Positions 1 to 56,417 of a stretch of 64,000 nt of DNA are shown here, piece by piece. This DNA comes from Escherichia phage EC.W14-3: sequence record PP496998.1; one strand, given 5' to 3'. The number at the start of each line of letters is the position of its first letter. Position 1 is the stretch's first letter. The notes beneath the pieces were generated by a model that was not told the DNA's origin, did not search any database, and saw only the letters and a list, made by a program, of their open reading frames with translations. Both the position numbers and the translations under genes were made by a program.

Positions 1-8
1 GAGCGGAG

Positions 9-224
9 ATGCTCAGCGCCACCGTGCACGTCGCATCGTTGAAAAGCGCGATGGAAAAGCTGCTGTCAGAGGTAAAGACGTTGGACACAAACGAGCTGTC
101 AAGTCTGGAGGCTCTAATGCGTCAAGCAACTTACGTGTTGAATCAGTCAGCTCAAACCGTTCAAACGGCGGCAAAAGTGGTGATCGAGCTGGAAAAGCAA
201 ACGGAGCTAGGAAGGGGGCGTTGA
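9..224 (+). CDS. hypothetical protein; frame is open to the window start so it may be the 3' part of a longer gene
   Basis: ORF track; no stop between position 3 and 9 in frame; no recognisable motif. Confidence 0.3.
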   Translation: MLSATVHVASLKSAMEKLLSEVKTLDTNELSSLEALMRQATYVLNQSAQTVQTAAKVVIELEKQTELGRGR

Positions 225-716
225 GTGGTTCTTGATGACACCTTATCTTACGATGCGGTCACAGGTAACCTATATTACACAAAATCTCCTAGCAAAGGAG
301 TGATGTGGAACAAAAGCCACCCCGGAAAGATAGCTGGATGTATGATATCGAAAGGCTATATCGGTGTGTATTTCCAAGGAAGACGATGGAGAGCGCACCG
401 ACTTATAGCTACGCACTTTATACCAAACCCTAACAATTATCCAGAAGTCAACCACATCAATGGGATAAAAGACGATAATCGACTGGAGAATCTTGAATGG
501 GTATCCGCTTCTGAAAACATACAACATTCCTTTGATACAGGGTTGAATAAAGGGCACACTCGTGACAATAACGGAATGACCAAATTATCCTCTGGAGATG
601 TTGTAAAGATTAAACAGATGTATGTGAAGGGTTCTAGGGATTTTGGCTCTAGAGGTCTTGGTAAGTTGTTTGGCGTGAGCCATACAGCTATACTCCATGC
701 TTTAAAGGAGCTTTAA
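225..716 (+). CDS. HNH homing endonuclease (HNH_3-like)
   Basis: GTG start abutting upstream stop; motif HRLIATHFIPNPNNYPEVNHINGIKDDNRLENLEWVSASENIQHS typical of phage HNH homing endonucleases. Confidence 0.7.
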   Translation: MVLDDTLSYDAVTGNLYYTKSPSKGVMWNKSHPGKIAGCMISKGYIGVYFQGRRWRAHRLIATHFIPNPNNYPEVNHINGIKDDNRLENLEWVSASENIQHSFDTGLNKGHTRDNNGMTKLSSGDVVKIKQMYVKGSRDFGSRGLGKLFGVSHTAILHALKEL

Positions 717-12275: not shown

Positions 12276-12598
12276 GAACTGACATTATCACACAAGCAGA
12301 TAAAAATAAACTCTTCGACTTAATCCACGACCTATTAGAAGCTCAGAGCTTTATTGACAATGCCGATACTTGGGAGATGGAAGCAGCTGGAAAAGCTTTT
12401 GATGAAAGTGAAGAGAAACTTACTAATTTTATAAACACAATCTAGGAGGGTATATGAATGAAGAAGTTGTTATCCTTGGAAGTAAATCAGATTGGTTCTA
12501 TGGAGGCATCTCAGGATGCTTTGAAGATGAACATCCAGACTTCTGAAGAAAATTGGGATGTATGACGAATTTGATGGTTTTTAAAACTTAGAAACAAA

Positions 12599-12632
12599 TA
12601 AAGCCCCTTCCTTTCGGTTGGGGCTTTTCTTT
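12599..12632. terminator. bidirectional terminator between the convergent plus and minus gene blocks
   Basis: AAGCCCC...GGGGCTT hairpin flanked by A-run and T-run. Confidence 0.55.
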
Positions 12633-12634
12633 TA

Positions 12635-15600
12635 TCACTCCTTAGGTCGAACTCTTACACGGAGTCTCGATTGACGCTTACTGCGTTCAAGCTTCTCTGA
12701 CAATGAGCCACGTTTAATCTTAGGCTTCCCTTCGTCATTAAACTTCTCCAAGAACTGCAAGTACTCAGTACGATTTGTTGTCTTGTAAGAAGGAATCTTG
12801 ATATCAGGGTTCTCTTCAATCACACGTCTCATCTTCGCTACATCATCCCTACCAAGCAACTTACTCTTAGCCTGTTCAGCTGTAGAACCAAAGATCTTCT
12901 CCAGTGCTCTGGATTTGTTACCACCTGCGGAAGAAGCACCAAGTTTAGCAATGGCAGAGTAATCATCAGCACTAAACCAAGCTACTGGATTATCACCATA
13001 CTTCTTCTTGTTTTCAGCAGCAGTCTGCAATGCACGTACAAAGCGACGGTTGTTACCAGCCTTATCTGCACCATGAACCCTGTCTAAAACTTCAGCCACA
13101 CTAGCTAATTCATCCAAGCTCTTCCCGCTTAAGAAAGCTTTCTCTACTTTATCAGCAAAGACCTCTTCCTGTTGTTTAATGCTTTCCAAGATATCAGAAT
13201 TTGCTTGAGATTTTTCATCATCAGGTAGAGCAGAACGAATCTTCTCCATCTCCAATTCTTCCTCTTGCAGTTTCTTAATATCAGAGTCAACCTTCTGAGC
13301 CTCCTCAATAGCCTTCCTAGTATCCGCATCCAAGTTATCAAGCTTACCTTCAGTATCTCCAGTAACCTTAACAATCTCTTTCTCGATAGGAGTCATTGAT
13401 TCGTACTTCTTAGCAAACTTCTCAACATCAGCTTCGATACGAGAACGAGCATTCTGATGTTCAGTAGGAGTCATAGGTTTCTCAAGAAGTGCATAACGGT
13501 TGTCCATATAGGAACCAGCAAACGCTTCAGCATCCTCTCTAGATATGCCCTTATCTTCCATAGTACGCATCAGGCGGCGATGAATGTCATCACGTTGACG
13601 TTGTACTGCCATAAGATCATTCTCACGCTCTTGGGCCGCTTTAAGCTCTTCACTGCGCTTAACTCTCTTGTCCACATCAAACTTACGGTTCATCTCTTCC
13701 GCTTGCTCGTACATCTTGTTCCACTTGGCCTGACGAGCATCTTCCTCTGCATCAGTTAAACGACGCTGACGATCAAGGTAATCTGACTCGGCGTTGTGGA
13801 TACGTTCAATGTAACTACGGAACTTCTCTGGAGGAACTGGAGAGTTCTTGTCATGGTGAGCAGCCAACTGTTTCAATGTACGAGATTCCTGAGCCTCACG
13901 AACAGGTTTAGGTAAACCTTCCATCATCTTCTCAATCTCACTCTTCTGAGCTGCAATAGCCTCTAAAGTTTTACGTTCATTCTCAACAGCAGCCTTAGCA
14001 TCTGAACGAGCCTGAGCCTTTTTCCTGAGGGTAGCAAGACGTTCTTCACGAGCCTGTAAGTGCTTAGCAGCAGCTTCGTACTGAGAGTTCTTGTTAGCTT
14101 TGTTGAAGGCATTCACTTCTCTGTTGTAGGTGTTAATAAACCCATCCCAAATATCCTTCATCTGACCAACTTCCAAAGCCTCTTCCCTACCAGCCTTCTC
14201 TGAAGATTTAAACTTCCCATCTACAAAGTCATTCATCAGCTTACGCATAGCATCTTTCTGAGCAGGACGTAAAGGTTCTGAATCAATCAAAGCATCAATC
14301 TCAGACTGAAGCTCTTTCTTCTGATCAACCAGTTTAGGAGCATCTTTCTTATCGAAAGCTTTGTTCTCTTCTAGAGCTTGTTGGTACAGTCTATCAAACT
14401 CATCCTCACGCTGCTTCTGATACAACCTTTCAGCACGACGTTTCAGACTATCCAAGTTAGTTACGTTCCCACCTAAACCTTTCTCTTCAGCACGTAATGC
14501 CTTAGTAGCAATGTCTTCTGGCAGACCACGTTCTTTAACCCATTCAGCAAAATTAGTTCGTACAGTGTTGTTCTTAGCAGTAGCAATACCTTGCTGAGAG
14601 GCCAGCTGGTTACGAGCCATTTCTTCATGACGTTCAGTGTTGATAGCATTATCTTCCTGACGAATACGACGCATCAGTTCCTTAGGATCGCCTTTATAAG
14701 CCAAGAAGTTTTCAGCAGTAGCTTTAGCTTTAGCAGCCTTAGAGTACAGAGAACGAGCAAAGCGTTCTGCACGATCTTTAGTAGCCTGACGAGCAGCACT
14801 AGACATAGCAGCTAAACGTTCTACACCACTTGCCGGTTTAACGTCCTGTACAGCTTCCTTAGGAGCTTTAGGAGCACGAGCAGGTAACGGCTCAGCTTTG
14901 ACTGTTGGTTCCTCTACGGTTGGTTCTGGAGCCTGTGCGGCCTCTTCTTGAGCACGTTGCTGTTCCATTGCACGACGCTCCTCTAGAGGGTTACGAGCAG
15001 GGAGAGGTTCAGCCTGTGGAGCTTGTTCGACCGGAGCTTCTTGAGCTGCTGCTGCCTCTTCTTCAGCTCGACGCTGTTCAGCCTGACGGATAGCGCGTCT
15101 TTGCGCAACTAAATCACGAGCTGTGAGAGGGGTTTCTTGAGGAGTAGAAGAAGGAAGATTTTCTTCCGTCACAGTACTAGAAGAAGGCTCCCGAACCGGT
15201 TCGGTTTCCACGTCATTTTGCGTCTTAAATTTAATGTCATCAACAACTGGTTCTTCTTCCATCTTAGCACGAGCTTCATCAGCAGTAGATTTAGCACGAG
15301 CAACTTCCAAATCACCACGAGCCAGAGAGCGGATAGCTTCACTATTAGACTCTTGTTGCTTAACACGTTGAGAACGGGCACGCTGAGAAGAGAAGCGATT
15401 CAGAGCATATTTAGCAGCACCGAGAGTGTTCATCACCAGACTAGGAGAAGAAGCCTCACGGAATCCATCATCAGTCAAGGAAGTCCAACCACGATCTTGG
15501 TTGCTCATGAATTTAGCTGTATTGTTCAGAGTATAAGCATCTTGAATAGGATTAAAACCTTCAGGCATACCTTTCAGTTTCTTCAACCCACCAATAGCTT

Positions 15601-17056
15601 TCTTCATCTCTGGAGAAACATTATCAGCCATCTTCTGTAGTTCAGCAGCTTTCTCTACAAAGTTATTAAAGTCTTCGCCATCACGAGCTTTGAATCGATT
15701 TGCTTCATTGTAGAAAGTCTTGTAAGCATCAATGAAATCACGGTCGGCTTGTGTACGGTTCTTAATATCAATCGGACTACCAGTAAAATCACCAGAAGCT
15801 CGGAGAGAGGTTAATTCACGATCTAGATTATCTAGAACATCTGTAAGAGCTTTCGTGTTGTCTTTGGTGTAGTCAGCCATTGCATCCTTCATAGCAACAG
15901 CCTGCTTCTGGTTGTGCTCGTTATCAGCGAATGCTTTACCACGAGTCTTAGCAGGAGAAGCTAAAGGGTTGAGGCCCGGAATGTTGGAATGTTCTTTCTG
16001 AATGGAAGCAGCTTTCTCAGCACGAGCTTGGTCAGTATTAAGAATACGCTGAGCAGCAGGAGAGTCTACAGCAACAGCATCTGTAATACGGAATCCATTC
16101 TCATCCAGAAGGTTCAGAGCAGAAGCAGCGTTAGCAGTTTCAGCTTTAGAGTAAGCTTCTTTCAGTTCATCAATATTCTTAGCACTACGAATTAGTTCAT
16201 CATCAGCAGCAATATCAGTCTTCGCATACTCTGGAGTGTTCTTGAAGACAGTAGAATCCGGACGGTTAATCAAACCATGAACCCCACCAACTGCACCACC
16301 GAATGCAGCACCCATAGCACCTTCTTCGATAGCACCTTCTAATACATTAGCAAAGGTTGTATCATCTCCATGCTTGTTCTGAGCTTCAGCAGCACCTACA
16401 AGAGCGCCACCTTTAGCACCAGCCACTGCGTTAGTAGCAACGTTCTGACCAATACGTCCAAGTGTGGACTCAGCTGTACCAACAGCGCCCGGAAGGATTC
16501 TCTGAGCCGCATAGTTAGCACCACCAACTAAGGCTGCATCTAGAATAGATTTATCTTCCCCCTCTTCAGGGGTTTGGTCTGCATATGCACGACCTGTCTC
16601 ACGACCTGCGATGATAGCAGCAGCAGCCAATGGGTTAGCAACAGTCATACCAATATCACCAGCAACGCCAGCATACTGACCTACAGTTTTACCAATCCCA
16701 TCCTCAATCTTATCCATACGTTCTTTCAGAAGATTCTGAGAGTTCTCTTGGATACGCTTACCATAACTAGTTTGTGCTCCAGCTAGATTCTCACCAATCT
16801 CAACTAAACCACCAATACCTTTAGCAGCACTAGCTGCAATATTTGCACCACCAGATTGAAGAGCATTTGACACACCTTGAGCAAACTCACCTATAGCACC
16901 ACGTTCTTCTTGTTGTGGTTGTGCTACTGGCTGTTCCTCAGGAATAGAGCCACCTGCTGCCTTATATTGTTCTCTCATTTGAGCTTGTTGCTCCGGAGAG
17001 GCATTCAGATACGCAGGAGCTTTGGAAGCTTCTTCCCACGGTTTAATGTTAGCCAT
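12635..17056 (-). CDS. large internal virion / ejection protein (about 1473 aa)
   Basis: start placed at MANIK with AAGGAG upstream; Gly/Ala-rich N-terminus, long charged coiled-coil regions, internal repeats AEPLPAR; last gene of the structural block. Confidence 0.5.
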   Translation of the reverse strand: MANIKPWEEASKAPAYLNASPEQQAQMREQYKAAGGSIPEEQPVAQPQQEERGAIGEFAQGVSNALQSGGANIAASAAKGIGGLVEIGENLAGAQTSYGKRIQENSQNLLKERMDKIEDGIGKTVGQYAGVAGDIGMTVANPLAAAAIIAGRETGRAYADQTPEEGEDKSILDAALVGGANYAAQRILPGAVGTAESTLGRIGQNVATNAVAGAKGGALVGAAEAQNKHGDDTTFANVLEGAIEEGAMGAAFGGAVGGVHGLINRPDSTVFKNTPEYAKTDIAADDELIRSAKNIDELKEAYSKAETANAASALNLLDENGFRITDAVAVDSPAAQRILNTDQARAEKAASIQKEHSNIPGLNPLASPAKTRGKAFADNEHNQKQAVAMKDAMADYTKDNTKALTDVLDNLDRELTSLRASGDFTGSPIDIKNRTQADRDFIDAYKTFYNEANRFKARDGEDFNNFVEKAAELQKMADNVSPEMKKAIGGLKKLKGMPEGFNPIQDAYTLNNTAKFMSNQDRGWTSLTDDGFREASSPSLVMNTLGAAKYALNRFSSQRARSQRVKQQESNSEAIRSLARGDLEVARAKSTADEARAKMEEEPVVDDIKFKTQNDVETEPVREPSSSTVTEENLPSSTPQETPLTARDLVAQRRAIRQAEQRRAEEEAAAAQEAPVEQAPQAEPLPARNPLEERRAMEQQRAQEEAAQAPEPTVEEPTVKAEPLPARAPKAPKEAVQDVKPASGVERLAAMSSAARQATKDRAERFARSLYSKAAKAKATAENFLAYKGDPKELMRRIRQEDNAINTERHEEMARNQLASQQGIATAKNNTVRTNFAEWVKERGLPEDIATKALRAEEKGLGGNVTNLDSLKRRAERLYQKQREDEFDRLYQQALEENKAFDKKDAPKLVDQKKELQSEIDALIDSEPLRPAQKDAMRKLMNDFVDGKFKSSEKAGREEALEVGQMKDIWDGFINTYNREVNAFNKANKNSQYEAAAKHLQAREERLATLRKKAQARSDAKAAVENERKTLEAIAAQKSEIEKMMEGLPKPVREAQESRTLKQLAAHHDKNSPVPPEKFRSYIERIHNAESDYLDRQRRLTDAEEDARQAKWNKMYEQAEEMNRKFDVDKRVKRSEELKAAQERENDLMAVQRQRDDIHRRLMRTMEDKGISREDAEAFAGSYMDNRYALLEKPMTPTEHQNARSRIEADVEKFAKKYESMTPIEKEIVKVTGDTEGKLDNLDADTRKAIEEAQKVDSDIKKLQEEELEMEKIRSALPDDEKSQANSDILESIKQQEEVFADKVEKAFLSGKSLDELASVAEVLDRVHGADKAGNNRRFVRALQTAAENKKKYGDNPVAWFSADDYSAIAKLGASSAGGNKSRALEKIFGSTAEQAKSKLLGRDDVAKMRRVIEENPDIKIPSYKTTNRTEYLQFLEKFNDEGKPKIKRGSLSEKLERSKRQSRLRVRVRPKE

Positions 17057-17094
17057 AACGTCTCCTTTTATAAATAAAAATGTCCTACCCCCTA

Positions 17095-17103
17095 TATACA
17101 TTA
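17095..17103 (-). promoter_or_regulatory. TAATGTATA motif (reverse complement on plus strand), candidate phage-sigma promoter upstream of the 1473-aa gene
   Basis: exact 9-mer about 40 nt upstream of the start codon. Confidence 0.4.
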
Positions 17104-42269: not shown

Positions 42270-43500
42270 TTCTCCTCTGAATAAGAGTATAAAGGGCACA
42301 TCATAAGACCTACCCGTAAAGGCCACCTCACATTAACACCCGTGAGAATACCTGTATTCATTTTCGTAGTCTTCTTCAGAGAAGCTACCGTATTCATCTT
42401 CTGTCATACATCCCTCTGATAAAGTTAAGACATAAAGGGGACGTCATCTTTGATGACTACTTCACATTAAGGCACCCCCATAAAGGCCATGTCACGTTAA
42501 GGCCTATCCATCCATGTGCTGTGTTTAAGCTTACCACATTTACTACATCTCCAAGTGGACTTATAAAGGGTGTGAACTCTTTCATCCCCGTAAGCTTTGC
42601 GTATCCGATAGTACTCATGATCACATTTGAATTGCTTAATGATTAACTTAATTTTCCACATAAGTTCTCTTTCAACCTTATATATAAGAGTTTAAAATAC
42701 AGATTTATAAAAAATAAAGATGTATATATCTGTTTAAAATTCTGATTTGACCGAGTGGGGCTAGCCGCTCGCCGCGCGTTTCCTAAAAGGGGGGAGTCCT
42801 CATTTAAAAAAGGGTTATTGGCAATGCCTTTACACCTCCTTCCACGTTCCAACCTTTCCCCGTGCCTACTCCCCGTTATTCTTTCCCCGTGTATACCATC
42901 CTATTCATTAGCTACCCGTTTATTTAGTACCCCTTTAGAGAGTGAGAGAAAGGCTATACTCTGATAAGGCACAATCATAACAGGTCTAATAATACCGTAT
43001 TGTTACCGTTCAGCTCCCCATAGTTTGAATGTAAATAGTTTCAATAGTAATGATTATGAGTGCAATAATGATGTATGTATTAATTAAGTGGATGATTGTA
43101 ATTCTTTTAATAATTGCTTTTATTCTTTTCTTTTTCAGCGTGCCTTTGTGAGCGTAGCGAACGTCTTTGATGTTTGAGTTATACAATTATTTAAGTGGTA
43201 TATTATTACCGCACTATCTTGCTATGTTTCCCCGTGGTCTACCCTGCGGTTGTATGCTCCCCGTGTCCTGGTCTGTTGGTCTGCTACCCGTAGCACCAGC
43301 GTAACACCCGTAGGATTAGTGTTATAAAGTAACAATAGCTAGTAAGCTGATTCTCTGAGTATGGAAGGTTTAGTAAATTAAATTCCTTTAGTTTTCAGTG
43401 AGTTATAAGAAAGTTAGAAAATAAATGGTTGACAGGTTTTTCCTTTATTATATAGTTGCGATTGTAATTTGTAGTTTTCATCAACCATAAGGAATATCAA
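42270..43500. promoter_or_regulatory. ORF-free divergent control region with two families of short direct repeats
   Basis: three repeats of TAAAGGCCAC..CACATTAA and about eight CCCCGT(G)/ACCCGT motifs; divergent genes on both sides. Confidence 0.45.
43429..43457 (+). promoter_or_regulatory. sigma70-type promoter
   Basis: TTGACA, 16-17 nt spacer, TATAGT, about 45 nt upstream of the first early ORF. Confidence 0.5.
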
Positions 43501-45710: not shown

Positions 45711-45839
45711 GAATCCCGTAGTAAGCAGTAAGTAACAACAAGTAGTAAAAACTCCTCGATAGGTGATTAGCATCACGGTAAAAGGCTTCAACGGGGAGCG
45801 GTAGGAATACCGACAGTAAGACGCACAATGAAGGTGCTA

Positions 45840-45849
45840 CGCTCTTTAA
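45840..45849 (+). repeat. CGCTCTTTAA motif, copy 1 of 4
   Basis: further exact copies at 45950, 46078 and 46311, each followed by an A-rich run. Confidence 0.5.
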
Positions 45850-45888
45850 AAATCAGGCTAGAAAGTGAAAATATTCTTAAAAAGAGTA

Positions 45889-45917
45889 TTGACACCGAAA
45901 ACAGCCTGATTCATAAT
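45889..45917 (+). promoter_or_regulatory. sigma70-type promoter (duplicate of the promoter at 46192)
   Basis: TTGACA, 17 nt spacer, CATAAT; about 50 bp near-identical to 46180..46240. Confidence 0.55.
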
Positions 45918-45949
45918 AAGCACTCAGTCAGCGATGACTTAAAAAATCC

Positions 45950-45959
45950 CGCTCTTTAA
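45950..45959 (+). repeat. CGCTCTTTAA motif, copy 2
   Basis: exact 10-mer. Confidence 0.5.
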
Positions 45960-46077
45960 AAACTTATCATCTTGCCTTTTCGCATAGATTCACGCGAGAT
46001 AAGGGAAAAGAATAAAAGAAGATGATAAAAAAGAGATTGACAAGCTAACACGATGTGTTAAGCTGTAAATGCTACAC

Positions 46078-46087
46078 CGCTCTTTAA
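46078..46087 (+). repeat. CGCTCTTTAA motif, copy 3
   Basis: exact 10-mer. Confidence 0.5.
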
Positions 46088-46191
46088 CAATATGAATCAT
46101 AAGTTAAGCATCACCGCTTAATCTTCAATCAAATAAAGCTGATTGATATATCCTCCCAATAGCGGGAACGACGAAAAAGATTAAAAAGTGG

Positions 46192-46220
46192 TTGACAGCG
46201 AAAACAACATGATTCATAAT
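46192..46220 (+). promoter_or_regulatory. sigma70-type promoter (duplicate of the promoter at 45889)
   Basis: TTGACA, 17 nt spacer, CATAAT. Confidence 0.55.
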
Positions 46221-46310
46221 GAGCACTCACTAAGCAAATCACCGCTTCAGTGAAAAGCGTAACAACGGCTAACAGTTGCATAGTGTGAGAAAGCACACTG
46301 ATAGATTTAC

Positions 46311-46320
46311 CGCTCTTTAA
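46311..46320 (+). repeat. CGCTCTTTAA motif, copy 4
   Basis: exact 10-mer. Confidence 0.5.
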
Positions 46321-47141
46321 TAATTTAAACATTCTCCTATATCGGTTGAATATGTTAGATGATAATAACCATCGGATAACATACCAGATAAAACGGTGTA
46401 AGATTCTCTAAACTATCAGAGAAAACAATCTTATAATCCCTTGCTGGAAACGTCACCACTGATAAACGGATTCATTGAGTGTACGCAAAGATTTAAGCTA
46501 ATCGCCCACGGTTAAGGGTAGCGGCGGTCATCGCTAACAAGGCGCTACAGTGAAAGAAGTTAATCAGGGTAGGCAAGCCCGAAGAATTAACGCTCAATTG
46601 AGAGCGGCGGGGAGTGGTTAAAAAGTGGCAAATTGCTATTTAACAATAAGGTTTAGTGTGAACGTTTACGATGTGAATGATTTGAGGCCACTATTGATGG
46701 CGTACATAGTCAGTTTATGTAGTAAACTTGCCGAAAGATATAAAACGTCAGAACATTAGACGGTCAATGACTCTTTCACAATAGCATCCCGTTGTGGGCG
46801 ATGGCTAGTGATTGAGAGTTGATACAAAAGGATAGGCGAGAGCGAAAGCAAAGTAGACGATATTGCCGACGGTTACAATAAACGTAACTAATTAGAGTCG
46901 GACGCACTGCCTTATTGTGATGATTGATCATCGCTATCAGGTCGGCTTCGTTTATAGCGACTAATTAAAGATACCAGATGAAACATCACGGATAAGGGGG
47001 CGGCAAGGTTAACTCCTGATAAGACCGCCCCGCTTACCTATAACTACTTAACAACGAGTGGTTATAGTTAAGTTAATAGTGACTTAAACAAGCTCATAGA
47101 GAGCGGGGCAATAGCGCCCTTACAAGTGAAAGGTGAATATC

Positions 47142-48041
47142 ATGGCTAAAATCTTTACTCTGGTTAACGAATCCGGTTTTAATGCTCTGGCTAACAACAT
47201 TCGCAGTAATAACGCGGCGATCAAACAAGATGTTTCTAACTTCCTGTTAGGGCACTTACAGCACTTCCGCAGTAATGGTAAGAAGCTGGACGTATTGCAG
47301 TCGGCGGTTGACTTTCTGTTAACTGAACGTTTCCGTGATATGGATGTTATTGCCACTGCAATTACTTTCTTAACTCCTATCAAGTTTAACACCGATGCGG
47401 CAAATGGTCGTAAAAAGTGGATTAATCTGGAAGGTGAGGCGAAAGCTAAAGAAGACGCGAAAGAAGCGCAAATTAAAACCAAAATGGAACAAAACCGCGC
47501 TCGCTGGTCAAATGCTTTCGAGAATTTTGCTTTAGGCCGTGAAATTGAAGTTGATAATCCTAACTTTTACAAGGGTTGCAATGACAACGTGGCGGCACAC
47601 CTGCAAATCCCGGCGAAAAACAAGGAAGATTTTAATCAGGATATTTACGCTTTAGTTGAACGCTTGAATGCAATCCGTATTGAAGCCAAATTATTGGCTG
47701 ATGAGCGCAATGGTGCTACCAGCGATAACACTATCGCCTTAAGTGAAGAAGTGGGCAAAGTTAAGAAGTCATTCGACTCGCTCATCAAGAAAGTCACGGC
47801 CTCAACGGTAGCGATCTCTGATAACTACCTGATGAACGCATCAAGCAAGGAATTAGAATCACTCGATTCATACGCTGATGAAATGGAAAAGACTGTTGCA
47901 GCTATGCAGGAGAAGTTAGAAAGTCTGCGCGGTCGTATCTCTTCAACGGTTGCTACCCGTACCGAACAAGCTGCGAAAGCAGAAGAGGAAGAAGTATTGC
48001 GTAAAGCGGCTGAAATTATGGCGGCACGTCAAGCGGCATAA
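47142..48041 (+). CDS. hypothetical early protein (300 aa, helical)
   Basis: ATG with AAAGGTGA SD; first long ORF after the 1.7 kb ORF-free stretch. Confidence 0.5.
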   Translation: MAKIFTLVNESGFNALANNIRSNNAAIKQDVSNFLLGHLQHFRSNGKKLDVLQSAVDFLLTERFRDMDVIATAITFLTPIKFNTDAANGRKKWINLEGEAKAKEDAKEAQIKTKMEQNRARWSNAFENFALGREIEVDNPNFYKGCNDNVAAHLQIPAKNKEDFNQDIYALVERLNAIRIEAKLLADERNGATSDNTIALSEEVGKVKKSFDSLIKKVTASTVAISDNYLMNASSKELESLDSYADEMEKTVAAMQEKLESLRGRISSTVATRTEQAAKAEEEEVLRKAAEIMAARQAA

Positions 48042-48143
48042 GTAAGACAATTTAAATAAACATAAGGTGCTATCTTAACGGGTAGCGCCTTTTCTTTTAT
48101 CAGTGCATTGATTCAGTGCATTAATCAAAGAATTTAATCAAAG

Positions 48144-48371
48144 GTGATGATCATGTTAATTACGCATACCACGATTTATAGGAATCTTGTCAACGGTCAA
48201 CATTACCGCCTATCTAAAAAATATGGCGTTGAATGTAAATGTATTATTACCGGTGAATGGTATCCGTCACCAATGAAGATTGAAACATTGGAACGTGAAG
48301 CGATCAGCTATATTATCACGCAAGAAACAACGTTAGGCCGTATCTTAAGAAAGTTGGGATTGAGAAAATGA
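48144..48371 (+). CDS. hypothetical protein
   Basis: ORF track. Confidence 0.35.
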   Translation: MMIMLITHTTIYRNLVNGQHYRLSKKYGVECKCIITGEWYPSPMKIETLEREAISYIITQETTLGRILRKLGLRK

Positions 48372-48592
48372 TATTCAGTAATAATTTTGGCAAGTGTCCT
48401 ATTTGTGAGAAACATCGCAGCACGGGAAACCATCGCAAATGTAGTAAGATATTACAGCGCCAACGTGATAACAACCATTGGGATACTGTACACGCTAATC
48501 AGCGTAAAGAAGAAGTTAAAGAAATGGCTGTTAAAGCATCCTTTGCCCAATCCACCCGTATTGAACACATCCAAAGGTATCAAGCATTATGA
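48368..48592 (+). CDS. small zinc-finger-like protein
   Basis: CPICEKH...HRKC Cys/His cluster. Confidence 0.35.
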   Translation: MIFSNNFGKCPICEKHRSTGNHRKCSKILQRQRDNNHWDTVHANQRKEEVKEMAVKASFAQSTRIEHIQRYQAL

Positions 48593-48798
48593 TCACTAAT
48601 ATTTCAGAGTTTAAGAAAGCGCCTTCTCGTCTGTTAGGTCGTCGTGTTGTGTATCTTTATAGCAATAAAGGTAAAGCTACAACTGGACGAATTACAACAG
48701 TAAGTAGTGTTACTAAAGGTTTGCTCAAGTTATGTGTAGCTATGGACGATGGTACAATCCTGCTACGCAGTTGGAAGTCATTTAGTTTACTCGATTAA
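48589..48798 (+). CDS. hypothetical protein
   Basis: ORF track; ATGA overlap. Confidence 0.35.
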   Translation: MITNISEFKKAPSRLLGRRVVYLYSNKGKATTGRITTVSSVTKGLLKLCVAMDDGTILLRSWKSFSLLD

Positions 48799-48867
48799 GT
48801 TATTTGTTCAAGCCTGTCACCTTGATGGGCTTGCCCGATATAATTTATCACTAAAAGGAATAAGGTT

Positions 48868-49311
48868 GTGGCTAAATCTAAAATCAGCATGAAGGGCGGG
48901 CGTTGTTTTTCTATATCTGAACTGGAGAAAGAGAATCCAAAGGCAACCAATCACGTCAGCAAGCGTAGTTTAAAACGTCGTGCTGCAAAGGCTGAAGCTG
49001 AATCCCATATCCCTTCTAGTGTGGCAAAACGTGTAGGCCATCGTGTCCATCGTGCTGATGCGTTATTGTTAGCCGATCATAAACGTTCTTTGTTAAAGAG
49101 CGGGGGAGCAAAAACAGAAGAGGAGAAGAAGTTAGAAATCTTCTGTAATGGTCGCACCCGTGGTAAACAGAAGTTTAAGGGTAGCACGAAAGACCCGCAG
49201 GCTTTTCCTAAGACAAGCCAGTGCGCACCTGATGTTTTCTACGCAGACAGTAAACACAAGTGGGGCGTTGAAAAATACATTGATCCCATCAAAGAGGCGA
49301 GGGTAAAATGA
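48868..49311 (+). CDS. basic hypothetical protein
   Basis: ORF track; Lys/Arg-rich. Confidence 0.4.
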   Translation: MAKSKISMKGGRCFSISELEKENPKATNHVSKRSLKRRAAKAEAESHIPSSVAKRVGHRVHRADALLLADHKRSLLKSGGAKTEEEKKLEIFCNGRTRGKQKFKGSTKDPQAFPKTSQCAPDVFYADSKHKWGVEKYIDPIKEARVK

Positions 49312-49481
49312 TTTATTCAGAGATTCTAAATAAAGTCAGAGAGATGCGGCAAGGTGATGCAGTAGTTGATGTTCTGGTCCATCTGGTAGCATCCTTGCAA
49401 GAAGAAAACGAATTGGTTAAACAAGAAAACAAGGCATTAAGGAAGGCAATAAGTAACCTCTCCAATAGCCTCTCTTTTTAG
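49308..49481 (+). CDS. small hypothetical protein (57 aa)
   Basis: ATGA overlap with previous gene; translation checked by hand. Confidence 0.35.
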   Translation: MIYSEILNKVREMRQGDAVVDVLVHLVASLQEENELVKQENKALRKAISNLSNSLSF

Positions 49482-49536
49482 TACTATGACGCTCTTTCTG
49501 TCGCGTCGTGCCCTCTCCCCATTTGAAGCTTCCGCA

Positions 49537-49560
49537 TAGCCGCCTTTGAGCGGCTTTTTG
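49537..49560 (+). terminator. rho-independent terminator
   Basis: AGCCGCC-TTTGA-GCGGCT followed by TTTTT. Confidence 0.55.
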
Positions 49561-49622
49561 CGTTGCTGTAAGTGCATTTGCGAGTGTATTTATAGCAACG
49601 GTCATGTGTTGCTTTCAGGTTT

Positions 49623-49648
49623 GCCCCGGCTACGGCTGGGGCTTTTTT
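49623..49648 (+). terminator. rho-independent terminator
   Basis: GCCCCGGC-TAC-GGCTGGGGC followed by TTTTTT. Confidence 0.6.
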
Positions 49649-49697
49649 ATGCCCGTAAAACAGGAGGTATCAAGTTCTGATAACAACGGCACAGCTA

Positions 49698-50087
49698 ATG
49701 TTGACATTGACTATTTATTATGAGGCAGGGAATCAGCCAACCGCATGTAAGGCTTTAGTTGCGGATACCGTGATAAATAGAATGGCCCAACGAAAACTGA
49801 CCGCTGAACAGGTGATAAGACAAAAGAACCAGTTTGAGTGGATTCCGGTACTATTAAAACAGGAGAAACCTTATAAACGTTATGTAAAGCTGATTCGTGA
49901 TAAAAATCCGATGACTAAGCAAGCCATTGGAGAAAGCGAGCGGCTGGCTAAACGTGCCCTTAAGAAGAATTATGTTCCGCTGTACAGTGGGACTTACTTT
50001 CAGAGTAAGAGCGAAGGGGTGCCAAAATGGTATGCCAATCCTATGTATTGTGGTGATTTAGTATTTGATAATAGCTCTAGGGAATAA
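49698..50087 (+). CDS. cell-wall hydrolase, SleB/CwlJ-like (Hydrolase_2) domain
   Basis: TIYYEAGNQPTACKALVADTVINRM resembles the conserved N-terminal block of SleB-type hydrolases. Confidence 0.45.
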   Translation: MLTLTIYYEAGNQPTACKALVADTVINRMAQRKLTAEQVIRQKNQFEWIPVLLKQEKPYKRYVKLIRDKNPMTKQAIGESERLAKRALKKNYVPLYSGTYFQSKSEGVPKWYANPMYCGDLVFDNSSRE

Positions 50088-50286
50088 TCACTAGTGCCAG
50101 ATTTGACAAACTAAATTCCTTTATAAACCAACCACTTAGTAAATTTATTGAAAAAGATGGTAGTATTCTGGGACTATGGGTAATGCTCTGTATATAGACC
50201 CTTTGAAAATTTCTTAGAAAATAAGTTTACTAAATATAACTTACTTAAATAATATTACTTTTAATCTCTGATAAAGGGTAAATAAT

Positions 50287-50583
50287 ATGACTTTAGAAGT
50301 ATATAAATTCCTTTTTGTAAGCTGTTTAACTATCAGCGTTCTAGGATTTATTGTTCTAAGAAACAAAGCAGCAAGCTGGGAAAGAATGTATAAATCCCTA
50401 GTCCGAGTGGATGAGATGTATAATGAGAAGGTTAAAGTAACACTCAACGATCTTATTATGCAAGTTGAGGACAGAAACAAGCGTCTTCAGAACCTCAATC
50501 ACGAAGTGTTACGCCTTGCTCGTGCTAATGAAGACTTGCGAATAGCTATTGCTAAGCAGCAGGAGATTAACAGTGATAATTGA
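50287..50583 (+). CDS. membrane protein with N-terminal TM and coiled coil
   Basis: FLFVSCLTISVLGFIVL then heptad-like region. Confidence 0.4.
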   Translation: MTLEVYKFLFVSCLTISVLGFIVLRNKAASWERMYKSLVRVDEMYNEKVKVTLNDLIMQVEDRNKRLQNLNHEVLRLARANEDLRIAIAKQQEINSDN

Positions 50584-50584
50584 T

Positions 50585-50809
50585 ATGAACAACGCCCCAA
50601 AGGTTTTAACTCTTGGGGATTTAGAATCAGGTGATGTATTCCAGTTCCCTCTGGATGGGGAGAATTACTATATGTTATCTAGTCAGAAGTTTGGGACAAC
50701 AGACAAGAGAAGTTATATCAATCTTTCCTGTGGCGTTATTGCAACGGATGAAGGTAATACAGTCATCAAGAAGGTCAGCAATGCTCGGCTTACCAATAAG
50801 GTGGATTAA
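50585..50809 (+). CDS. GDVF-family small protein, paralog A
   Basis: shared pattern L.LGDL..GDVF ... YYM ... G with seven other ORFs. Confidence 0.45.
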   Translation: MNNAPKVLTLGDLESGDVFQFPLDGENYYMLSSQKFGTTDKRSYINLSCGVIATDEGNTVIKKVSNARLTNKVD

Positions 50810-50811
50810 CA

Positions 50812-51048
50812 GTGAAAGTTAATATTAAATCCGATCGTACAATGCTTCGCTTAAACAACATGAAGCCGGGCGTTCTATTTGAGCGTAAAGAATCCCTTTA
50901 CATTAGAACCGACACATTGTACGCAGACAATTATGTCAACTGTGTTGATGTGGTAACTGGAAAGCTCATTCCTTTTAAACGGGATGAAGTCTGCCAAGTA
51001 CGCAGCGATCTCCACATAACTAACATAGAGGCTAAAGATGAAGATTGA
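50812..51048 (+). CDS. GDVF-family small protein, paralog B (divergent)
   Basis: PGVLF ... YI ... VNCVDVVTG pattern; tandem position. Confidence 0.4.
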   Translation: MKVNIKSDRTMLRLNNMKPGVLFERKESLYIRTDTLYADNYVNCVDVVTGKLIPFKRDEVCQVRSDLHITNIEAKDED

Positions 51049-51295
51049 TTTGAAGGTAAATGAACCATCTTTGTGTGTTGGTGATCTCAAACTTGGAGAT
51101 GTATTCCAAATCAGGGAAACACGAGCAGATTTCTACATGGTTGTTCAGCTATTTACCTCACAGATTGAAGAGACCAAGCCTTCTGATGGGGGTTGTGTCG
51201 TCCTTAGTCTGACAAATAAGCAAGTCCTTAAGCTTAGCTCGAAAAGCAAGGTTGTTCTTCTTCATGATGTTGTTATTACTAACAAGGGCAAGTAG
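51038..51295 (+). CDS. GDVF-family small protein, paralog C
   Basis: VGDLKLGDVFQ ... FYMVV. Confidence 0.45.
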   Translation: MKIDLKVNEPSLCVGDLKLGDVFQIRETRADFYMVVQLFTSQIEETKPSDGGCVVLSLTNKQVLKLSSKSKVVLLHDVVITNKGK

Positions 51296-51514
51296 ATGGA
51301 AATTAAAGTAGTTGATTATCCTAAATATGCAAATGCAGAAGATGTTAAAGGTGGTGATGTTTTCTCTTACGACAGACGTTTCTGGCTGATGTTAGAAGAT
51401 AAAACTCCCGATGGTTTATGTAAGGCCGCCAATCTGAACAGCGGTTCTGTTGAAGTCTTCGGTCTATCAACCACTGTTATGCCACGCCCTGATCTGTGTT
51501 TATCCCAAAAGTAA
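51296..51514 (+). CDS. GDVF-family small protein, paralog D
   Basis: VKGGDVFSY ... FWLML ... ANLNSGSV. Confidence 0.45.
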   Translation: MEIKVVDYPKYANAEDVKGGDVFSYDRRFWLMLEDKTPDGLCKAANLNSGSVEVFGLSTTVMPRPDLCLSQK

Positions 51515-51522
51515 CATCGACT

Positions 51523-51609
51523 TATAGCCCTTGTGTTTATCAGAGGGCTATGTGAGGGTGTTCCTCATTAACTTATTAATTCAGGCATATGCCACACCGC
51601 TAGGGAGAG
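51523..51609 (+). repeat. conserved intergenic element, copy A (hairpin ATAGCCCT..AGGGCTAT + GTGAG; GCTAGGGAGAG box)
   Basis: same components recur at 56671..56760. Confidence 0.45.
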
Positions 51610-51872
51610 CTTGCTCGAACATCCGGTGTTAGACTAAAACCTGTTCAATTTCGGTAGACTTTCCACTACGTAGGGGTACGTATTGGTTTGGGATTCAGGA
51701 GATCTCCTAGGGGTAGGAGGTCTTCACCAGTTGGGATAAGAGATAGCTCTAGAACCTGAACTCTTAGGCAGAGAGGGTCGGCAATGAGTACGAGGTCAGA
51801 ATTAGCCTCCTGACTAGGGCTATCCCTTATATCAACTGGCAATAATGCCTCCACTAATAAAGAGAGAACGTT

Positions 51873-52013
51873 ATGAAGAAGTCAACCAAGAGTATGAACC
51901 GTCCTGAGCGTATGGATGCAGTAGCAAATGGTGCACTGAAGATCGAGTCTGCCATGCTGCGTCTGATGGGTAACATCCGTAAGCGTCAAGGTGGTTGGGT
52001 TTACAATAACTGA
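51873..52013 (+). CDS. small basic protein (46 aa)
   Basis: ATG after AGAGAGAA; translation checked by hand; below ORF-track cutoff. Confidence 0.3.
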   Translation: MKKSTKSMNRPERMDAVANGALKIESAMLRLMGNIRKRQGGWVYNN

Positions 52014-52226
52014 TTTAATAAAAGGCTGCCTAGAAATAGGTGGCCTTTGTTGTTTTAATTAAGGGTCAACTCTTACTTAAACTAACAACGGGTGTATGGT
52101 ATTGACAGGCATCGGCACGGAACTTGTTACCAACAAGGTTGGCGAATCAAGACCTCTGTGAAGCTCCGAAGAAATCAAGGCAGGTTCGACTCCTGCTCCC
52201 CGACCAAATCAGCAAGAGGTGCTTAT

Positions 52227-52580
52227 ATGAGAAGCATGGTTAAAGATTGGGTAACTAAATCAGGTCTTCGTGCTGTGATTATGCACATGAACGACTCCCA
52301 CTTTTGTGGATATGTAGAGCTACCAGACAGCTTAAAACATAAAAACTTCACCGGATATAACGGGAATGAAGAAGTTTGTTATGTAAGTGTTCATGGTGGT
52401 GTCACATGGCAAGATACCCTTGAAGAGATGGATGGTTTAGATACAATCGGATTTGATTGTGCCCATGCAGGTGATAAGACACGGTTCAACCCTAACGGGG
52501 TTCCAAGAACAGAAACGTTCTGCATCAACGAATGCGAACAAATGGCTGAACAACTAAGAGATCTCGAATCAAATGTCTAA
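52227..52580 (+). CDS. hypothetical protein
   Basis: internal ATG (MRSMVKDW) with AAGAGGTG SD; the upstream part of ORF 52092..52580 is probably promoter/leader. Confidence 0.4.
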   Translation: MRSMVKDWVTKSGLRAVIMHMNDSHFCGYVELPDSLKHKNFTGYNGNEEVCYVSVHGGVTWQDTLEEMDGLDTIGFDCAHAGDKTRFNPNGVPRTETFCINECEQMAEQLRDLESNV

Positions 52581-52745
52581 GCAAACAATCAAACATACGC
52601 AAGCTGGTTACTCTTATATCAACTCTCCTTGTTGTGGTGCTCGTGTGAATCTGGTTAAGGAAGAGGTTCGTATCGTTCAGCGTGGCGCTACTGTTGTTCG
52701 TTCATGCTGTGTCTGTGGTAATGACATTTTTATCAAAGGTAAAGT

Positions 52746-52997
52746 ATGAAAAACTTCCAAGCTGCACCAATAACTAAAGTGATCGAAGTTGACGGTGTAA
52801 TGATGACTGTTCCTCTGAACACTCGTTACATTGCAATTGACAAGATGGGCTATGTATGGGCTTGGAAGATCAAGCCTAGTTATAACGCACTGTTTGATGA
52901 GTTTGTTTGTACTGGTACTTACAGTCCTACATTCTTGGGTTTATTTGGAGAGTTTGATGGTAAGCATAAAATCATCACTCTCCCTGCTTGTGCTTGA
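52746..52997 (+). CDS. hypothetical protein
   Basis: ORF track. Confidence 0.35.
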   Translation: MKNFQAAPITKVIEVDGVMMTVPLNTRYIAIDKMGYVWAWKIKPSYNALFDEFVCTGTYSPTFLGLFGEFDGKHKIITLPACA

Positions 52998-53177
52998 GGT
53001 TATTATGTTCAAGTGGTTTAAACGTTTCTTCCATCTCCATGATTGGGAGACAATAAAAGAAATTCGTTTACACATATATAATGAGATTGGTCAAATAGAA
53101 GACACAGGTACTCGTTATATACTTCGATGTAAAACATGTGGTCATATCACCAAGCGAGATATGATCTAAATAATTCT

Positions 53178-53693: not shown

Positions 53694-53694
53694 T

Positions 53695-55952: not shown

Positions 55953-56183
55953 GAAAACAAATGAGACGTAAAGCATATTCTTATGACGATATGATTAACC
56001 AGAAAGGCTTTGGTCAACGGCAGCCTGACGGTTCAATTATCTGGTTCGTAAACGGACAGAAAAAGGTAGCTAAATAAGCCCTCTTCTCTCCCCCTTTTAG
56101 TACTATGACGCCTCTCTGTGGGCGGCCCAATTTGCGTAGGGAATTCCCTCTACGCAGCCATGACTTTTTAAGGAATTTCCCCT

Positions 56184-56417
56184 ATGTCTAAAGTAAGCGC
56201 AATCGATGCAATCCGTCAACCGTTCCAGTTCCAATCCAAATCAACCCAAACCTTCAGTGAGCCTAAGCAAATTCGCTTGGGTGGCACAGAGAAGACTGTG
56301 TTTGATCTGGCTAAAAACAAGAGCGTTACCGTAGTTGATGGTGGCACTCTGGTTAACGTTTCCCATCGTATCCGCACTGGCAAAACTGCCAAAGATCGTG
56401 CTAAGAAAGGTGAGTGA
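56184..56417 (+). CDS. hypothetical protein
   Basis: ORF track. Confidence 0.35.
   Translation: MSKVSAIDAIRQPFQFQSKSTQTFSEPKQIRLGGTEKTVFDLAKNKSVTVVDGGTLVNVSHRIRTGKTAKDRAKKGE

What the first reader, a model, noticed from the sequence alone, without database searches (positions are those of the whole stretch)
49471..49500. Conserved 17-mer TTTTAGTACTATGACGC at two gene ends
The exact string TTTTAGTACTATGACGC, preceded by a CT-rich run, occurs at 49476..49492 and 56095..56111, each just downstream of a small gene; the second copy is followed by a near-palindrome TGCGTAGGGAATTCCCTCTACGCA. It could be a promoter for a distinct transcription class or a regulatory protein site.
Basis: seen in the sequence. 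Interest (0 to 1): 0.4.

Follow-up and report, generated by a model that had tools for sequence, protein, structure and literature searches.

The report
Conserved phage DNA nick-site motif
The repeated 17-mer contains the sequence at which related Pseudomonas phages carry programmed single-strand nicks in their packaged DNA, so this E. coli phage probably has three such nicks, which would give a tractable system for asking why phages nick their own genomes.

Summary
TTTTAGTACTATGACGC occurs exactly at 49476-49492 and 56095-56111 (+). Each copy follows a CT-rich run at the end of a small gene.

The window is Escherichia phage EC.W8-1, a phiEco32-like Kuravirus. The motif is not a sigma-70 promoter, a gp36 promoter (tAATGTAtA) or a terminator.

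Its invariant core across three genera is TACT[A/G]TGACG. This equals the mapped nick consensus 5'-TACT/RTGMC-3' of Pseudomonas phage tf (WACTRTGAC in phage Rembedalsseter).

A third, diverged copy lies inside a late structural gene on the other strand (15182-15166). EC.W8-1, ECBP2 and KBNP1711, and the 94% of phiEco32 that was scanned, each hold exactly these three orthologous sites and no others.

These phages share replication and morphogenesis genes with tf. A closer relative, Salmonella phage pSal-SNUABM-01, has 13 sites on one strand against about 1.4 expected.

A 105-aa HNH-like protein, about 60% identical across the motif-bearing lineages compared (including tf and LUZ24), is a candidate nickase.

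Best reading: these are strand-specific nick sites of the tf/LUZ24 type (confidence about 0.55). A physical nick in kuravirus DNA has not been shown.

The parts
49476..49492 (+). 17-mer copy 1 (site 1). The nick-consensus core TACTATGAC is at 49482-49490. The predicted nick is between T49485 and A49486.
   Evidence: The core is invariant in 6 phages of 3 genera while the upstream flank is unalignable. Consensus taken from PMC3517423.
49467..49479 (+). AGCC plus pyrimidine tract preceding site 1. Similarity to many other kuraviruses begins here or at the motif itself, which marks a mosaic junction.
   Evidence: (BLAST matches start at query positions 26, 37 or 43).
49488..49507 (+). Short inverted repeat GACGC-N10-GCGTC overlapping the 3' half of the core. 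It is weak and of uncertain significance.
   Evidence: -4.3 kcal/mol, z = -1.6. The 3' arm is conserved in Kuravirus and Suseptimavirus.
49538..49560 (+). First terminator-like hairpin plus T run, 46 nt downstream of site 1. It is conserved across genera.
   Evidence: It is annotated as a terminator in phage WFI101126.
49623..49648 (+). Second terminator-like hairpin plus T run downstream of site 1.
   Evidence: It is annotated as a terminator in phages Paul and WFI101126.
56095..56111 (+). 17-mer copy 2 (site 2). The core TACTATGAC is at 56101-56109. The predicted nick is between T56104 and A56105.
   Evidence: Conserved in Kuravirus, Suseptimavirus and Nieuwekanaalvirus. TACTATGACGCC is identical to tf site sci1.
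56077..56098 (+). AGCC plus 20-nt pyrimidine tract preceding site 2.
56109..56124 (+). Short inverted repeat CGCC-N8-GGCG. In phage WFI101126 it is a full GACGCC/GGCGTC pair. It is weak.
   Evidence: -4.5 kcal/mol, z = -0.5..
56133..56156 (+). It is a separate hairpin upstream of gene 56184..56417. It is conserved in Kuravirus and Nieuwekanaalvirus but not recognisably in ECBP2, where a gene follows site 2 in its place.
15166..15182 (-). Third copy (site 3), TTCTAGTACTGTGACGG. The core TACTGTGAC runs 15176->15168. The predicted nick is between 15173 and 15172 on the - strand. It lies inside the 1488-aa late ORF and is preceded by AGCCTTCTTC (15189->15180).
   Evidence: The 9-mer is invariant in 5 phages, including three synonymous or variable codon positions. 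Orthologous sites exist in phiEco32, KBNP1711 and ECBP2.
1..235 (+). C-terminal 77 codons of a 105-aa HNH-like ORF (record 12326..12643; the first 28 codons lie before the window). This is the candidate nickase.
42763..42955 (-). Single copy of the 193-bp terminal repeat. It starts with AGCCTTTCTCTC and carries CTCCCCCCTTTTAG (42796->42783) about 20 nt before its right end. It may share the pyrimidine/TTTTAG box of sites 1 and 2. Including it as a part is tentative.
   Evidence: [CT]{6}TTTTAG occurs only 4 times in the whole genome.

Best explanation
The 17-mer is the kuravirus form of the nick-site motif of the tf/LUZ24 phage lineage.

Proposed mechanism:
- Late in infection a phage-encoded, sequence- and strand-specific nicking activity cuts one strand between TACT and RTGACG.
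- Packaged genomes would then carry three ligatable single-strand interruptions.
- Two would lie on the sense strand of the early genes: window + strand at 49485|49486 and 56104|56105. In phiEco32 these are about 7.0 and 14.5 kb from the right genome end.
- One would lie on the sense strand of a late gene: window - strand at 15173|15172.

What is shown and what is inferred:
- Shown here: the sequence identity with the mapped consensus, the conservation of three orthologous sites, the absence of any other site, the relatedness of the phages, and the strand-biased excess of the motif in a closer relative.
- Inferred: that the DNA is physically nicked in kuraviruses.
- Also inferred: that the enzyme is the conserved 105-aa HNH-like protein (phiEco32 gp58; window <1..235).

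The added pyrimidine tract and TTTTAG, the weak hairpins and the neighbouring terminators are specific to this subfamily. The nick model does not explain them.
For: 1. Motif match. The core invariant across Kuravirus, Suseptimavirus and Nieuwekanaalvirus is TACT[A/G]TGACG. Phage tf has 14 mapped nicks at 5'-TACT/RTGMC-3'; the two quantified were present in >90% of genomes (PMC3517423). Phage Rembedalsseter has 13 strand breaks at WACTRTGAC (PMC11780129). The one position that varies among kuraviruses is the R position of that consensus. A G follows the 9-mer in 12 of 14 tf sites and 8 of 9 LUZ24 sites, as it does here. By my own calculation, a given 17-mer would contain this 16-bit consensus by chance about 3e-4 of the time.

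2. Site count. The complete genomes of EC.W8-1, KBNP1711 and ECBP2, and 94% of phiEco32, each contain exactly three matches, all orthologous. Dinucleotide shuffles give about 2.35 matches per genome, and only 10-13% of shuffles give none. This fits conservation at three places and avoidance elsewhere.

3. Site 3. It is a conserved island in a variable stretch of a coding region. The 9-mer keeps three synonymous or variable codon positions in 5 phages, and the first position just outside it varies.

4. Relatedness. tf shares these proteins with EC.W8-1: primase-helicase (47%), DNA polymerase (40%), its separate exonuclease subunit, FEN, terminase (37%), portal, capsid, scaffold and the amidoligase module (phylogeny in PMC4281155).

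5. A closer relative. Salmonella phage pSal-SNUABM-01 (TerL 60% identical) has 13 sites on the early-gene sense strand and 1 on the other, against about 1.4 expected per strand.

6. Candidate enzyme. The small HNH-like protein is present in all motif-bearing lineages tested and absent from motif-less Vibrio phage Phriendly.
Against: - No physical evidence of nicks exists for any Gordonclarkvirinae phage. None was found in the literature searched.
- The total number of sites (3) equals the chance expectation, so there is no enrichment. The sites are on both strands, unlike the strict one-strand pattern of tf and LUZ24.
- Sites 1 and 2 carry about 50 nt of shared flank (pyrimidine tract, TTTTAG, Y-rich segment, weak inverted repeat). 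Site 1 is followed by terminators. This would also fit an RNA-level or regulatory role.
- Conservation at site 3 is partly explained by the conserved peptide TVTE.
- Cronobacter phage A24 has the HNH homologue but only 2 sites.
Confidence: 0.55

Rival explanations
1. Promoter of a separate transcription class, or operator for an early regulator. TACTAT or TACTGT would serve as a -10-like element read by modified host RNA polymerase, starting delayed-early transcripts.
For: TACTAT and TACTGT keep the critical T-A...T positions of a -10 hexamer. Both intergenic copies lie on the sense strand upstream of gene blocks. A D5-like 'transcriptional regulator' gene lies 650 bp upstream of copy 2.
Against: There is no -35, no TGn extension and no hit in the promoter scan. 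It is not the gp36 consensus (PMC4281155). Copy 1 is followed within 46 nt by a terminator and has no gene before it. A conserved third copy lies inside a late gene. In tf, LUZ24 and pSal-SNUABM-01 the same 9-mer lies mostly inside coding sequence.
Confidence: 0.1
2. RNA-level element of the early operon. The pyrimidine tract plus short hairpin would act in the transcript as a processing or stability signal, a pause or attenuation signal, or an antitermination signal at boundaries between early gene blocks.
For: Sites 1 and 2 lie on the transcribed sense strand at gene ends. Site 1 precedes two terminators, and its GACGCTCTTTC resembles boxA. Genuine boxA-like elements follow the early promoters. 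In KBNP1711 the hairpin at site 2 is followed by TTTTT.
Against: The hairpins are weak and no better than shuffled sequence. The loops and 3' arms are not what is conserved; the unpaired TACTRTG is. The boxA resemblance is absent at sites 2 and 3. There is no Rfam match. Site 3 is in a different transcription unit and within coding sequence.
Confidence: 0.12
3. Recombination or module-exchange sequence. It would be a conserved intergenic repeat that serves as a crossover point for swapping early gene cassettes, comparable to the promoter-stem-loop cassettes of T4-type phages (recalled from memory).
For: Similarity between phages breaks exactly at the motif. The gene upstream of site 1 differs between kuraviruses. 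phiEco32 has extra genes after site 1 and ECBP2 has an extra gene right after site 2.
Against: This does not explain the site 3 copy inside a gene, the identity with the nick consensus, or the absence of other copies. No flanking repeats surround the phiEco32 insertion. It is compatible with the nick model, since nicks stimulate recombination, and is not truly an alternative to it.
Confidence: 0.08
4. Secondary recognition site of the genome-end or packaging machinery. The pyrimidine/TTTTAG box shared with the terminal repeat would be bound by the terminase or end-processing complex.
For: The terminal repeat begins with AGCC plus a pyrimidine run. It contains CTCCCCCCTTTTAG about 20 nt from its right end, in the block best conserved between genera. 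[CT]{6}TTTTAG occurs only 4 times in the genome.
Against: AGCC plus a pyrimidine run occurs 15 times in the genome, and pyrimidine runs are common. AGCC is not kept at the repeat boundaries of KBNP1711. The invariant core TACTRTGACG is absent from the terminal repeat. The box is missing from Nieuwekanaalvirus site 1.
Confidence: 0.05

Closest known systems
Localized single-strand interruptions of Pseudomonas phages tf, LUZ24/PaP3 (Bruynoghevirus and relatives) and Rembedalsseter: 5'-TACT/RTGMC-3' or WACTRTGAC (PMC3517423, PMC11780129)
   Same: The 9-10 nt core is identical, including the permitted A/G position and the following G. Sites 1 and 2 lie on the sense strand of the early genes. The phages share replication and morphogenesis genes and a convergent early/late genome layout.
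   Different: There are only 3 sites per genome, against 8-14. The count equals chance, and one site is on the other strand. The sites carry extra conserved flanks (AGCC-pyrimidine tract, TTTTAG). Nicking has not been demonstrated for this subfamily.
Localized nicks of coliphage T5 (R/GCGCRGG) and of phiKMV-like phages (CGACNNNNNCCTA/CTCCGG), as quoted in PMC3517423
   Same: The concept is the same: a few fixed, strand-specific nicks in virion DNA, of unknown function.
   Different: The consensus sequences are unrelated and the phage lineages are unrelated. Neither motif is the one here.
phiEco32 gp36-dependent middle/late promoters (tAATGTAtA) and sigma-70 early promoters (PMC4281155, PMC12276001)
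   Same: These are short conserved elements in the same genomes. Exact TAATGTATA copies are at 6852-6844, 6916-6924, 17103-17095 and 33933-33925, and strong sigma-70 promoters are at 45683-46220.
   Different: The 17-mer matches neither consensus and lies in the early region, where gp36 promoters are not found.
Small stand-alone HNH nicking endonucleases (Gme HNH 4h9d, phage GVE2 HNH 5h0o, I-HmuI 1u3e), for the candidate enzyme
   Same: These are the best structural matches of the modelled 105-aa protein family. The family has a DH...N...NL...N signature.

Membership tests
tf/LUZ24-type nick sites (TACT/RTGMC) | The sequence matches the consensus 5'-TACTRTGMC-3'. | tested here: met
   All three sites match: TACTATGAC at 49482 and 56101, and TACTGTGAC at 15176-15168. 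Orthologues in the other genera also match.
tf/LUZ24-type nick sites (TACT/RTGMC) | The host phage belongs to the lineage that carries the system. | tested here: met
   tf proteins hit EC.W8-1 at 26-47% identity across the replication, packaging and capsid genes. The intermediate relative pSal-SNUABM-01 shows 13:1 strand-biased enrichment.
tf/LUZ24-type nick sites (TACT/RTGMC) | The motif is over-represented and all copies are on one strand. | tested here: not met
   There are 3 sites against about 2.35 expected, split 2 on one strand and 1 on the other. This lowers the membership claim. It does not bear on whether the individual sites are cut.
tf/LUZ24-type nick sites (TACT/RTGMC) | No unused copies of the motif elsewhere in the genome. 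In tf every copy of the consensus is nicked, and all copies and single-substitution variants lie on one strand. | tested here: met
   There are no non-orthologous matches in three complete genomes of three genera. P(0) is about 0.10-0.13 per genome in shuffles.
tf/LUZ24-type nick sites (TACT/RTGMC) | A physical, ligatable nick after position 4 in most virion DNA molecules. | not testable with these tools
   This needs native DNA: ONT strand coverage, primer extension, or an alkaline gel with and without ligase.
Sigma-70 promoter | A -35 and a -10 hexamer at 16-18 bp spacing, or an extended -10 (TGn). | tested here: not met
   The scan of 45000-64000 lists no site at either copy. By eye, the -35 positions read TCTCCA and CCTCTT, and TAG (not TGn) precedes TACTAT.
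gp36 (phage sigma) promoter | The single element tAATGTAtA, 6-8 nt upstream of the start. | tested here: not met
   No match within 1 mismatch at either copy. Consensus from PMC4281155 and PMC12276001.
Intrinsic terminator | A stable GC-rich hairpin followed directly by a T run. | tested here: not met
   The hairpins at the motif are -4.3 to -4.5 kcal/mol, with no T run in kuraviruses. True terminator-like sites lie downstream at 49538 and 49623.
boxA/nut antitermination site | boxA, (C/T)GCTCTT(T)A, conserved at all copies. | tested here: not met
   Only site 1 reads CGCTCTTTC. Site 2 reads CGCCTCTCT and site 3 reads CGGAAGAA. Real boxA-like elements are elsewhere.
Known RNA families (Rfam 15) | A covariance-model match. 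| tested here: not met
   Only the tRNA at 53178-53250 scores. Nothing is found at either copy.

The most novel reading that the evidence does not exclude
Gordonclarkvirinae have reduced an ancestral multi-site nicking system to exactly three protected sites and purge all other copies.

- The two early-strand nicks, 7 and 14.5 kb from the genome end that carries the early promoters, would mark boundaries of early transcription or stepwise genome entry. Site 1 sits directly before a double terminator.
- These nicks share a pyrimidine/TTTTAG box with the terminal repeat.
- The about 100-aa HNH-like protein, about 60% identical from Pseudomonas to E. coli phages and mis-annotated or unannotated in tf and LUZ24, would be the unidentified nickase of the TACTRTGAC family.
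Probability: 0.15. Interest if true: 0.75.

Novelty: new member of a known kind. Interest (0 to 1): 0.55.

Why it matters
Programmed nicks in phage genomes (T5, phiKMV-like, tf/LUZ24-like) have been known for about 50 years. Their function is unexplained, and the papers read here name no nickase for the TACTRTGAC family.

If kuraviruses are nicked at these sites, the question becomes testable in E. coli phages, some of which now grow on K-12 derivatives (BASEL Bas86-94):
- Only three sites need to be mutated, and one of them can be changed synonymously.
- There is a single small candidate gene to delete or purify.

It would also show that the motif spans at least three phage taxa: Bruynoghevirus-like phages, Grimontviridae and Gordonclarkvirinae. 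Finally, it would warn annotators that this conserved intergenic element is not a promoter.

Tried and rejected
- **Sigma-70 promoter.** No -35 or extended -10, and nothing in the scan.
- **gp36 promoter.** Different consensus.
- **Terminator or structured RNA.** The adjacent hairpins are weak and no better than shuffles. There is no Rfam hit.
- **Lambda-type boxA.** It appears at site 1 only, so it was rejected as the common feature. Real boxA-like elements were found elsewhere.
- **Palindrome TAGTACTA as a dimer-binding site.** It is not conserved in the other genera, which read CAACTACT or AGCTACT.
- **Small ORFs starting at the motif ATG (17 and 28 codons).** There is no Shine-Dalgarno sequence, and the frame is not conserved. 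Not pursued.
- **IMG/VR pattern scans with gapped patterns.** They returned mostly chance matches and were uninformative. The exact 15-mer scan recovered only the known kuravirus contigs plus chance hits.
- **Locus search with the downstream 77-aa protein.** It gave few loci. Its distant homologues are in unrelated phages of about 121-172 kb that lack the motif.
- **Primary literature.** Pavlova 2012 and Savalia 2008 (phiEco32 transcription and genome papers) are not held, so I could not check whether they mapped anything at these sites.
- **Record start positions as a proxy for breaks.** There is no correspondence.
- **Flanking repeats around the phiEco32 gp119 insertion.** None were found.
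- **Similarity of tf genome ends to the nick motif.** None was found.
- **Strict co-occurrence of the HNH gene with motif enrichment.** It fails for Cronobacter phage A24, which has 2 sites, and is unclear for Vibrio phage VP41s3.
- **PDB sequence search for the HNH family.** It found nothing.

Full report
**1. What the window is**

The window is 100% identical to Escherichia phage EC.W8-1 (PQ030848.1, Kuravirus, Gordonclarkvirinae). Window position equals record position minus 12408. This is a phiEco32-like podovirus.

Early genes run on the + strand from a cluster of strong sigma-70 promoters at 45683-46220. Late genes are on the - strand. Both copies of the 17-mer lie in the early region, which consists of many small ORFs.

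**2. The observation**

TTTTAGTACTATGACGC is present exactly at 49476-49492 and 56095-56111.

- Copy 1 overlaps the stop codon of the 57-aa ORF 49308..49481.
- Copy 2 lies 18 nt after the 38-aa CDS 55961..56077.
- Both follow a pyrimidine run that starts with AGCC.

An exact 17-mer repeat alone is not decisive, because another unrelated exact 17-mer pair exists in the window. The rest of the genome (record 1-12408) has no further copy.

One search also found a third, diverged copy, TTCTAGTACTGTGACGG, at 15182-15166 on the - strand. It lies inside the 1488-aa late ORF 12635..17101.

**3. What is conserved**

I fetched the two intergenic regions from phiEco32, Paul, WFI101126, NJ01, one metagenomic contig, EP335, KBNP1711 (Nieuwekanaalvirus) and ECBP2 (Suseptimavirus).

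- Upstream genes differ between phages, and alignments begin at or just before the motif.
- In the multi-genus alignments, the only invariant block apart from the downstream terminator is A-TACT-TGACG.
- The bases before it vary: TTTAGT, GTCAAC, TTTAGC and TTCAAC.
- The fifth base of the core is A or G.

So the functional core is TACT[A/G]TGACG, not the whole 17-mer.

**4. What it is not**

- The sigma-70 scan finds nothing at either copy. There is no -35 and no TGn.
- The phage sigma factor gp36 uses tAATGTAtA (PMC4281155; PMC12276001). Exact copies of that element are elsewhere in the window.
- The short inverted repeats next to the core (GACGC-N10-GCGTC; CGCC-N8-GGCG; GGAAGA-AAA-TCTTCC at site 3) fold at only -4.3 to -4.5 kcal/mol, with z-scores of -0.5 to -1.6.
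- Rfam has no match.
- The SU10 paper's table of promoters and terminators does not list these sites.

**5. What it matches**

Phage tf of Pseudomonas putida carries 14 nicks, all on one strand. The two that were quantified were present in >90% of virion DNA molecules. All map to 5'-TACT/RTGMC-3'. LUZ24, PaP3 and MR299-2 have 8-9 copies, mainly TACTATGAC (PMC3517423; read). Nanopore data show 13 strand breaks at WACTRTGAC in phage Rembedalsseter, and the motif is enriched in 60 related phages (PMC11780129).

- The kuravirus core is an exact match, and its only variable position is the R of that consensus.
- In the tf and LUZ24 sequences a G follows the 9-mer in 12/14 and 8/9 sites, as it does here.
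- tf sci1 reads TACTATGACGCC, identical to site 2.
- By my own arithmetic, the chance that a given 17-mer contains this consensus on either strand is about 18/65536.

**6. Three sites, no more**

TACTRTGMC occurs exactly three times in each genome examined:

| Phage | Sites |
|---|---|
| EC.W8-1 | 49482 +, 56101 +, 15176 - |
| KBNP1711 | 28225 +, 70091 -, 63768 - |
| ECBP2 | 28211 +, 71816 -, 65098 - |
| phiEco32 (94% of genome) | 27941 +, 70592 -, 63070 - |

The three places are always orthologous. Dinucleotide shuffles give about 2.35 occurrences per genome, and only 10-13% of shuffles have none. The pattern is therefore conservation at three places with no stray copies. That is what one expects of a nuclease target.

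At site 3 the flanking coding sequence is poorly conserved. The 9-mer is invariant in five phages, including the third positions of three codons. One of those codons changes amino acid (S/A/T) yet keeps its T. The peptide TVTE is also conserved, so this argument is suggestive but not proof.

**7. Relatedness and a bridging case**

tf proteins match EC.W8-1 across primase-helicase (47%), DNA polymerase (40%), its separate exonuclease subunit, FEN, terminase (37%), portal, capsid, scaffold and the amidoligase module. The SU10 paper already groups the two lineages by capsid and scaffold phylogeny.

Counts of TACTRTGMC in other relatives:

| Phage | Relation | Sites |
|---|---|---|
| Salmonella pSal-SNUABM-01 (Grimontviridae) | TerL 60% identical | 13 on the early/middle sense strand, 1 on the other; about 1.4 expected per strand |
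| Vibrio phage Phriendly | TerL 42% identical | 0 |
| Cronobacter phage A24 | Grimontviridae | 2 |

The motif system is therefore widespread in this group of phages, with high-copy and low-copy lineages. Gordonclarkvirinae are a low-copy lineage.

**8. A candidate enzyme**

I compared all EC.W8-1 ORFs with pSal-SNUABM-01, LUZ24, tf and Phriendly. One small protein stood out: record 12326..12643, 105 aa. Its last 77 codons are window 2-232.

- It is 58-62% identical to ORFs in tf (16141-16386) and LUZ24 (15655-15924), where it lies in a frame different from the annotated gene. It is similarly close to pSal-SNUABM-01 gene 072, which its authors annotated as PacI-like HNH.
- That is better conserved than the polymerase or the terminase.
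- It is absent from Phriendly.
- 247 phage records encode it: Pseudomonas 105, Escherichia 94, then Aeromonas, Proteus, Salmonella, Cronobacter and Vibrio.
- The family alignment shows a DH...GG.N..SNLRV...N signature.
- 15 of 31 members hit Pfam HNH (best E 3.9e-4) and 8 hit HNH_3 (best E 7.5e-5).

These scores are weak, and A24 has the gene but few sites. This is a lead, not a result.

**9. Features the nick model leaves open**

- Sites 1 and 2 share about 50 nt: AGCC, pyrimidine tract, TTTTAG, core and a Y-rich segment.
- Site 1 is followed by two conserved terminators (49538 and 49623).
- Gene content changes right at these sites in different phages. This fits nick-stimulated recombination, or simply flexible intergenic DNA.
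- The terminal repeat (window 42955-42763, - strand) begins with AGCC plus pyrimidines. It contains CTCCCCCCTTTTAG near its right end, in its best-conserved block. [CT]{6}TTTTAG occurs only four times in the genome. However, pyrimidine runs are common and the core is absent from the repeat. I treat a link to end processing as speculative.

**10. Verdict**

The motif is real and conserved. It is most likely a DNA-level target: the Gordonclarkvirinae version of the tf/LUZ24 nick site (confidence about 0.55). The promoter reading is unlikely.

Nothing in the held literature reports nicks in these phages. The BASEL paper calls their molecular biology poorly studied. The claim can be tested directly with native DNA.

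Noticed in passing
window 45840-45852, 45950-45962, 46078-46090, 46311-46323 (+); 49090-49102 (-): Five boxA-like elements, CGCTCTTTAA(A/C)AA, against 0.18 expected. The four on the + strand each lie about 100-130 nt downstream of one of the strong early sigma-70 promoters. This suggests Nus-factor (rrn- or lambda-type) antitermination of early transcripts, which must pass several terminator-like hairpins. The boxA consensus is recalled from memory.
   Followed up: partly
window <1..235 (+); record PQ030848.1 12326..12643: A 105-aa HNH-like ORF, cut by the window start. It is about 60% identical to ORFs in tf and LUZ24 that lie in a different frame from the annotated genes there. It appears to be mis-annotated in those reference genomes.
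   Followed up: yes
window 42763-42955 (- strand): A single copy of the 193-bp terminal repeat of phiEco32-type genomes (92% identical). Both repeat boundaries are followed by AGCC in EC.W8-1, and a block near the right end is highly conserved between genera.
   Followed up: partly
L271+L272 (Salmonella phage pSal-SNUABM-01, MW296032.1): There are 13 TACTRTGMC sites on the - strand and 1 on the +, against about 1.4 expected per strand. The extended consensus is acTACTGTGACg. I found no report of nicks or of this motif for Grimontviridae in the papers searched.
   Followed up: partly
L264 (tf) 2099, 5264, 20791; L272 (pSal-SNUABM-01, record 83542): In several phages the RTG of the nick motif is the annotated start codon of the next gene (tf_04, tf_15, tf_41; pSal-SNUABM-01 gene 145). 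In those cases the nick would fall exactly at a gene start.
   Followed up: no
window 50750-50766 (+) and 63900-63884 (-): Another exact 17-mer, GAAGGTAATACAGTCAT, is present once on each strand. It is probably chance and was not examined.
   Followed up: no
window 53178-53250 (+): A tRNA gene in the early region (Rfam tRNA, 72 bits). Related phages annotate a tRNA-Arg in the corresponding part of their early region. The EC.W8-1 record lists no feature here.
   Followed up: no
L277 (Vibrio phage VP41s3, MZ073369.1): The genome is strongly enriched in 8-mers of the form CCTTGTGG, CCCTGCGG and GGACCTTG (up to 45-fold over expectation). This is an unrelated repeated motif of unknown meaning.
   Followed up: no
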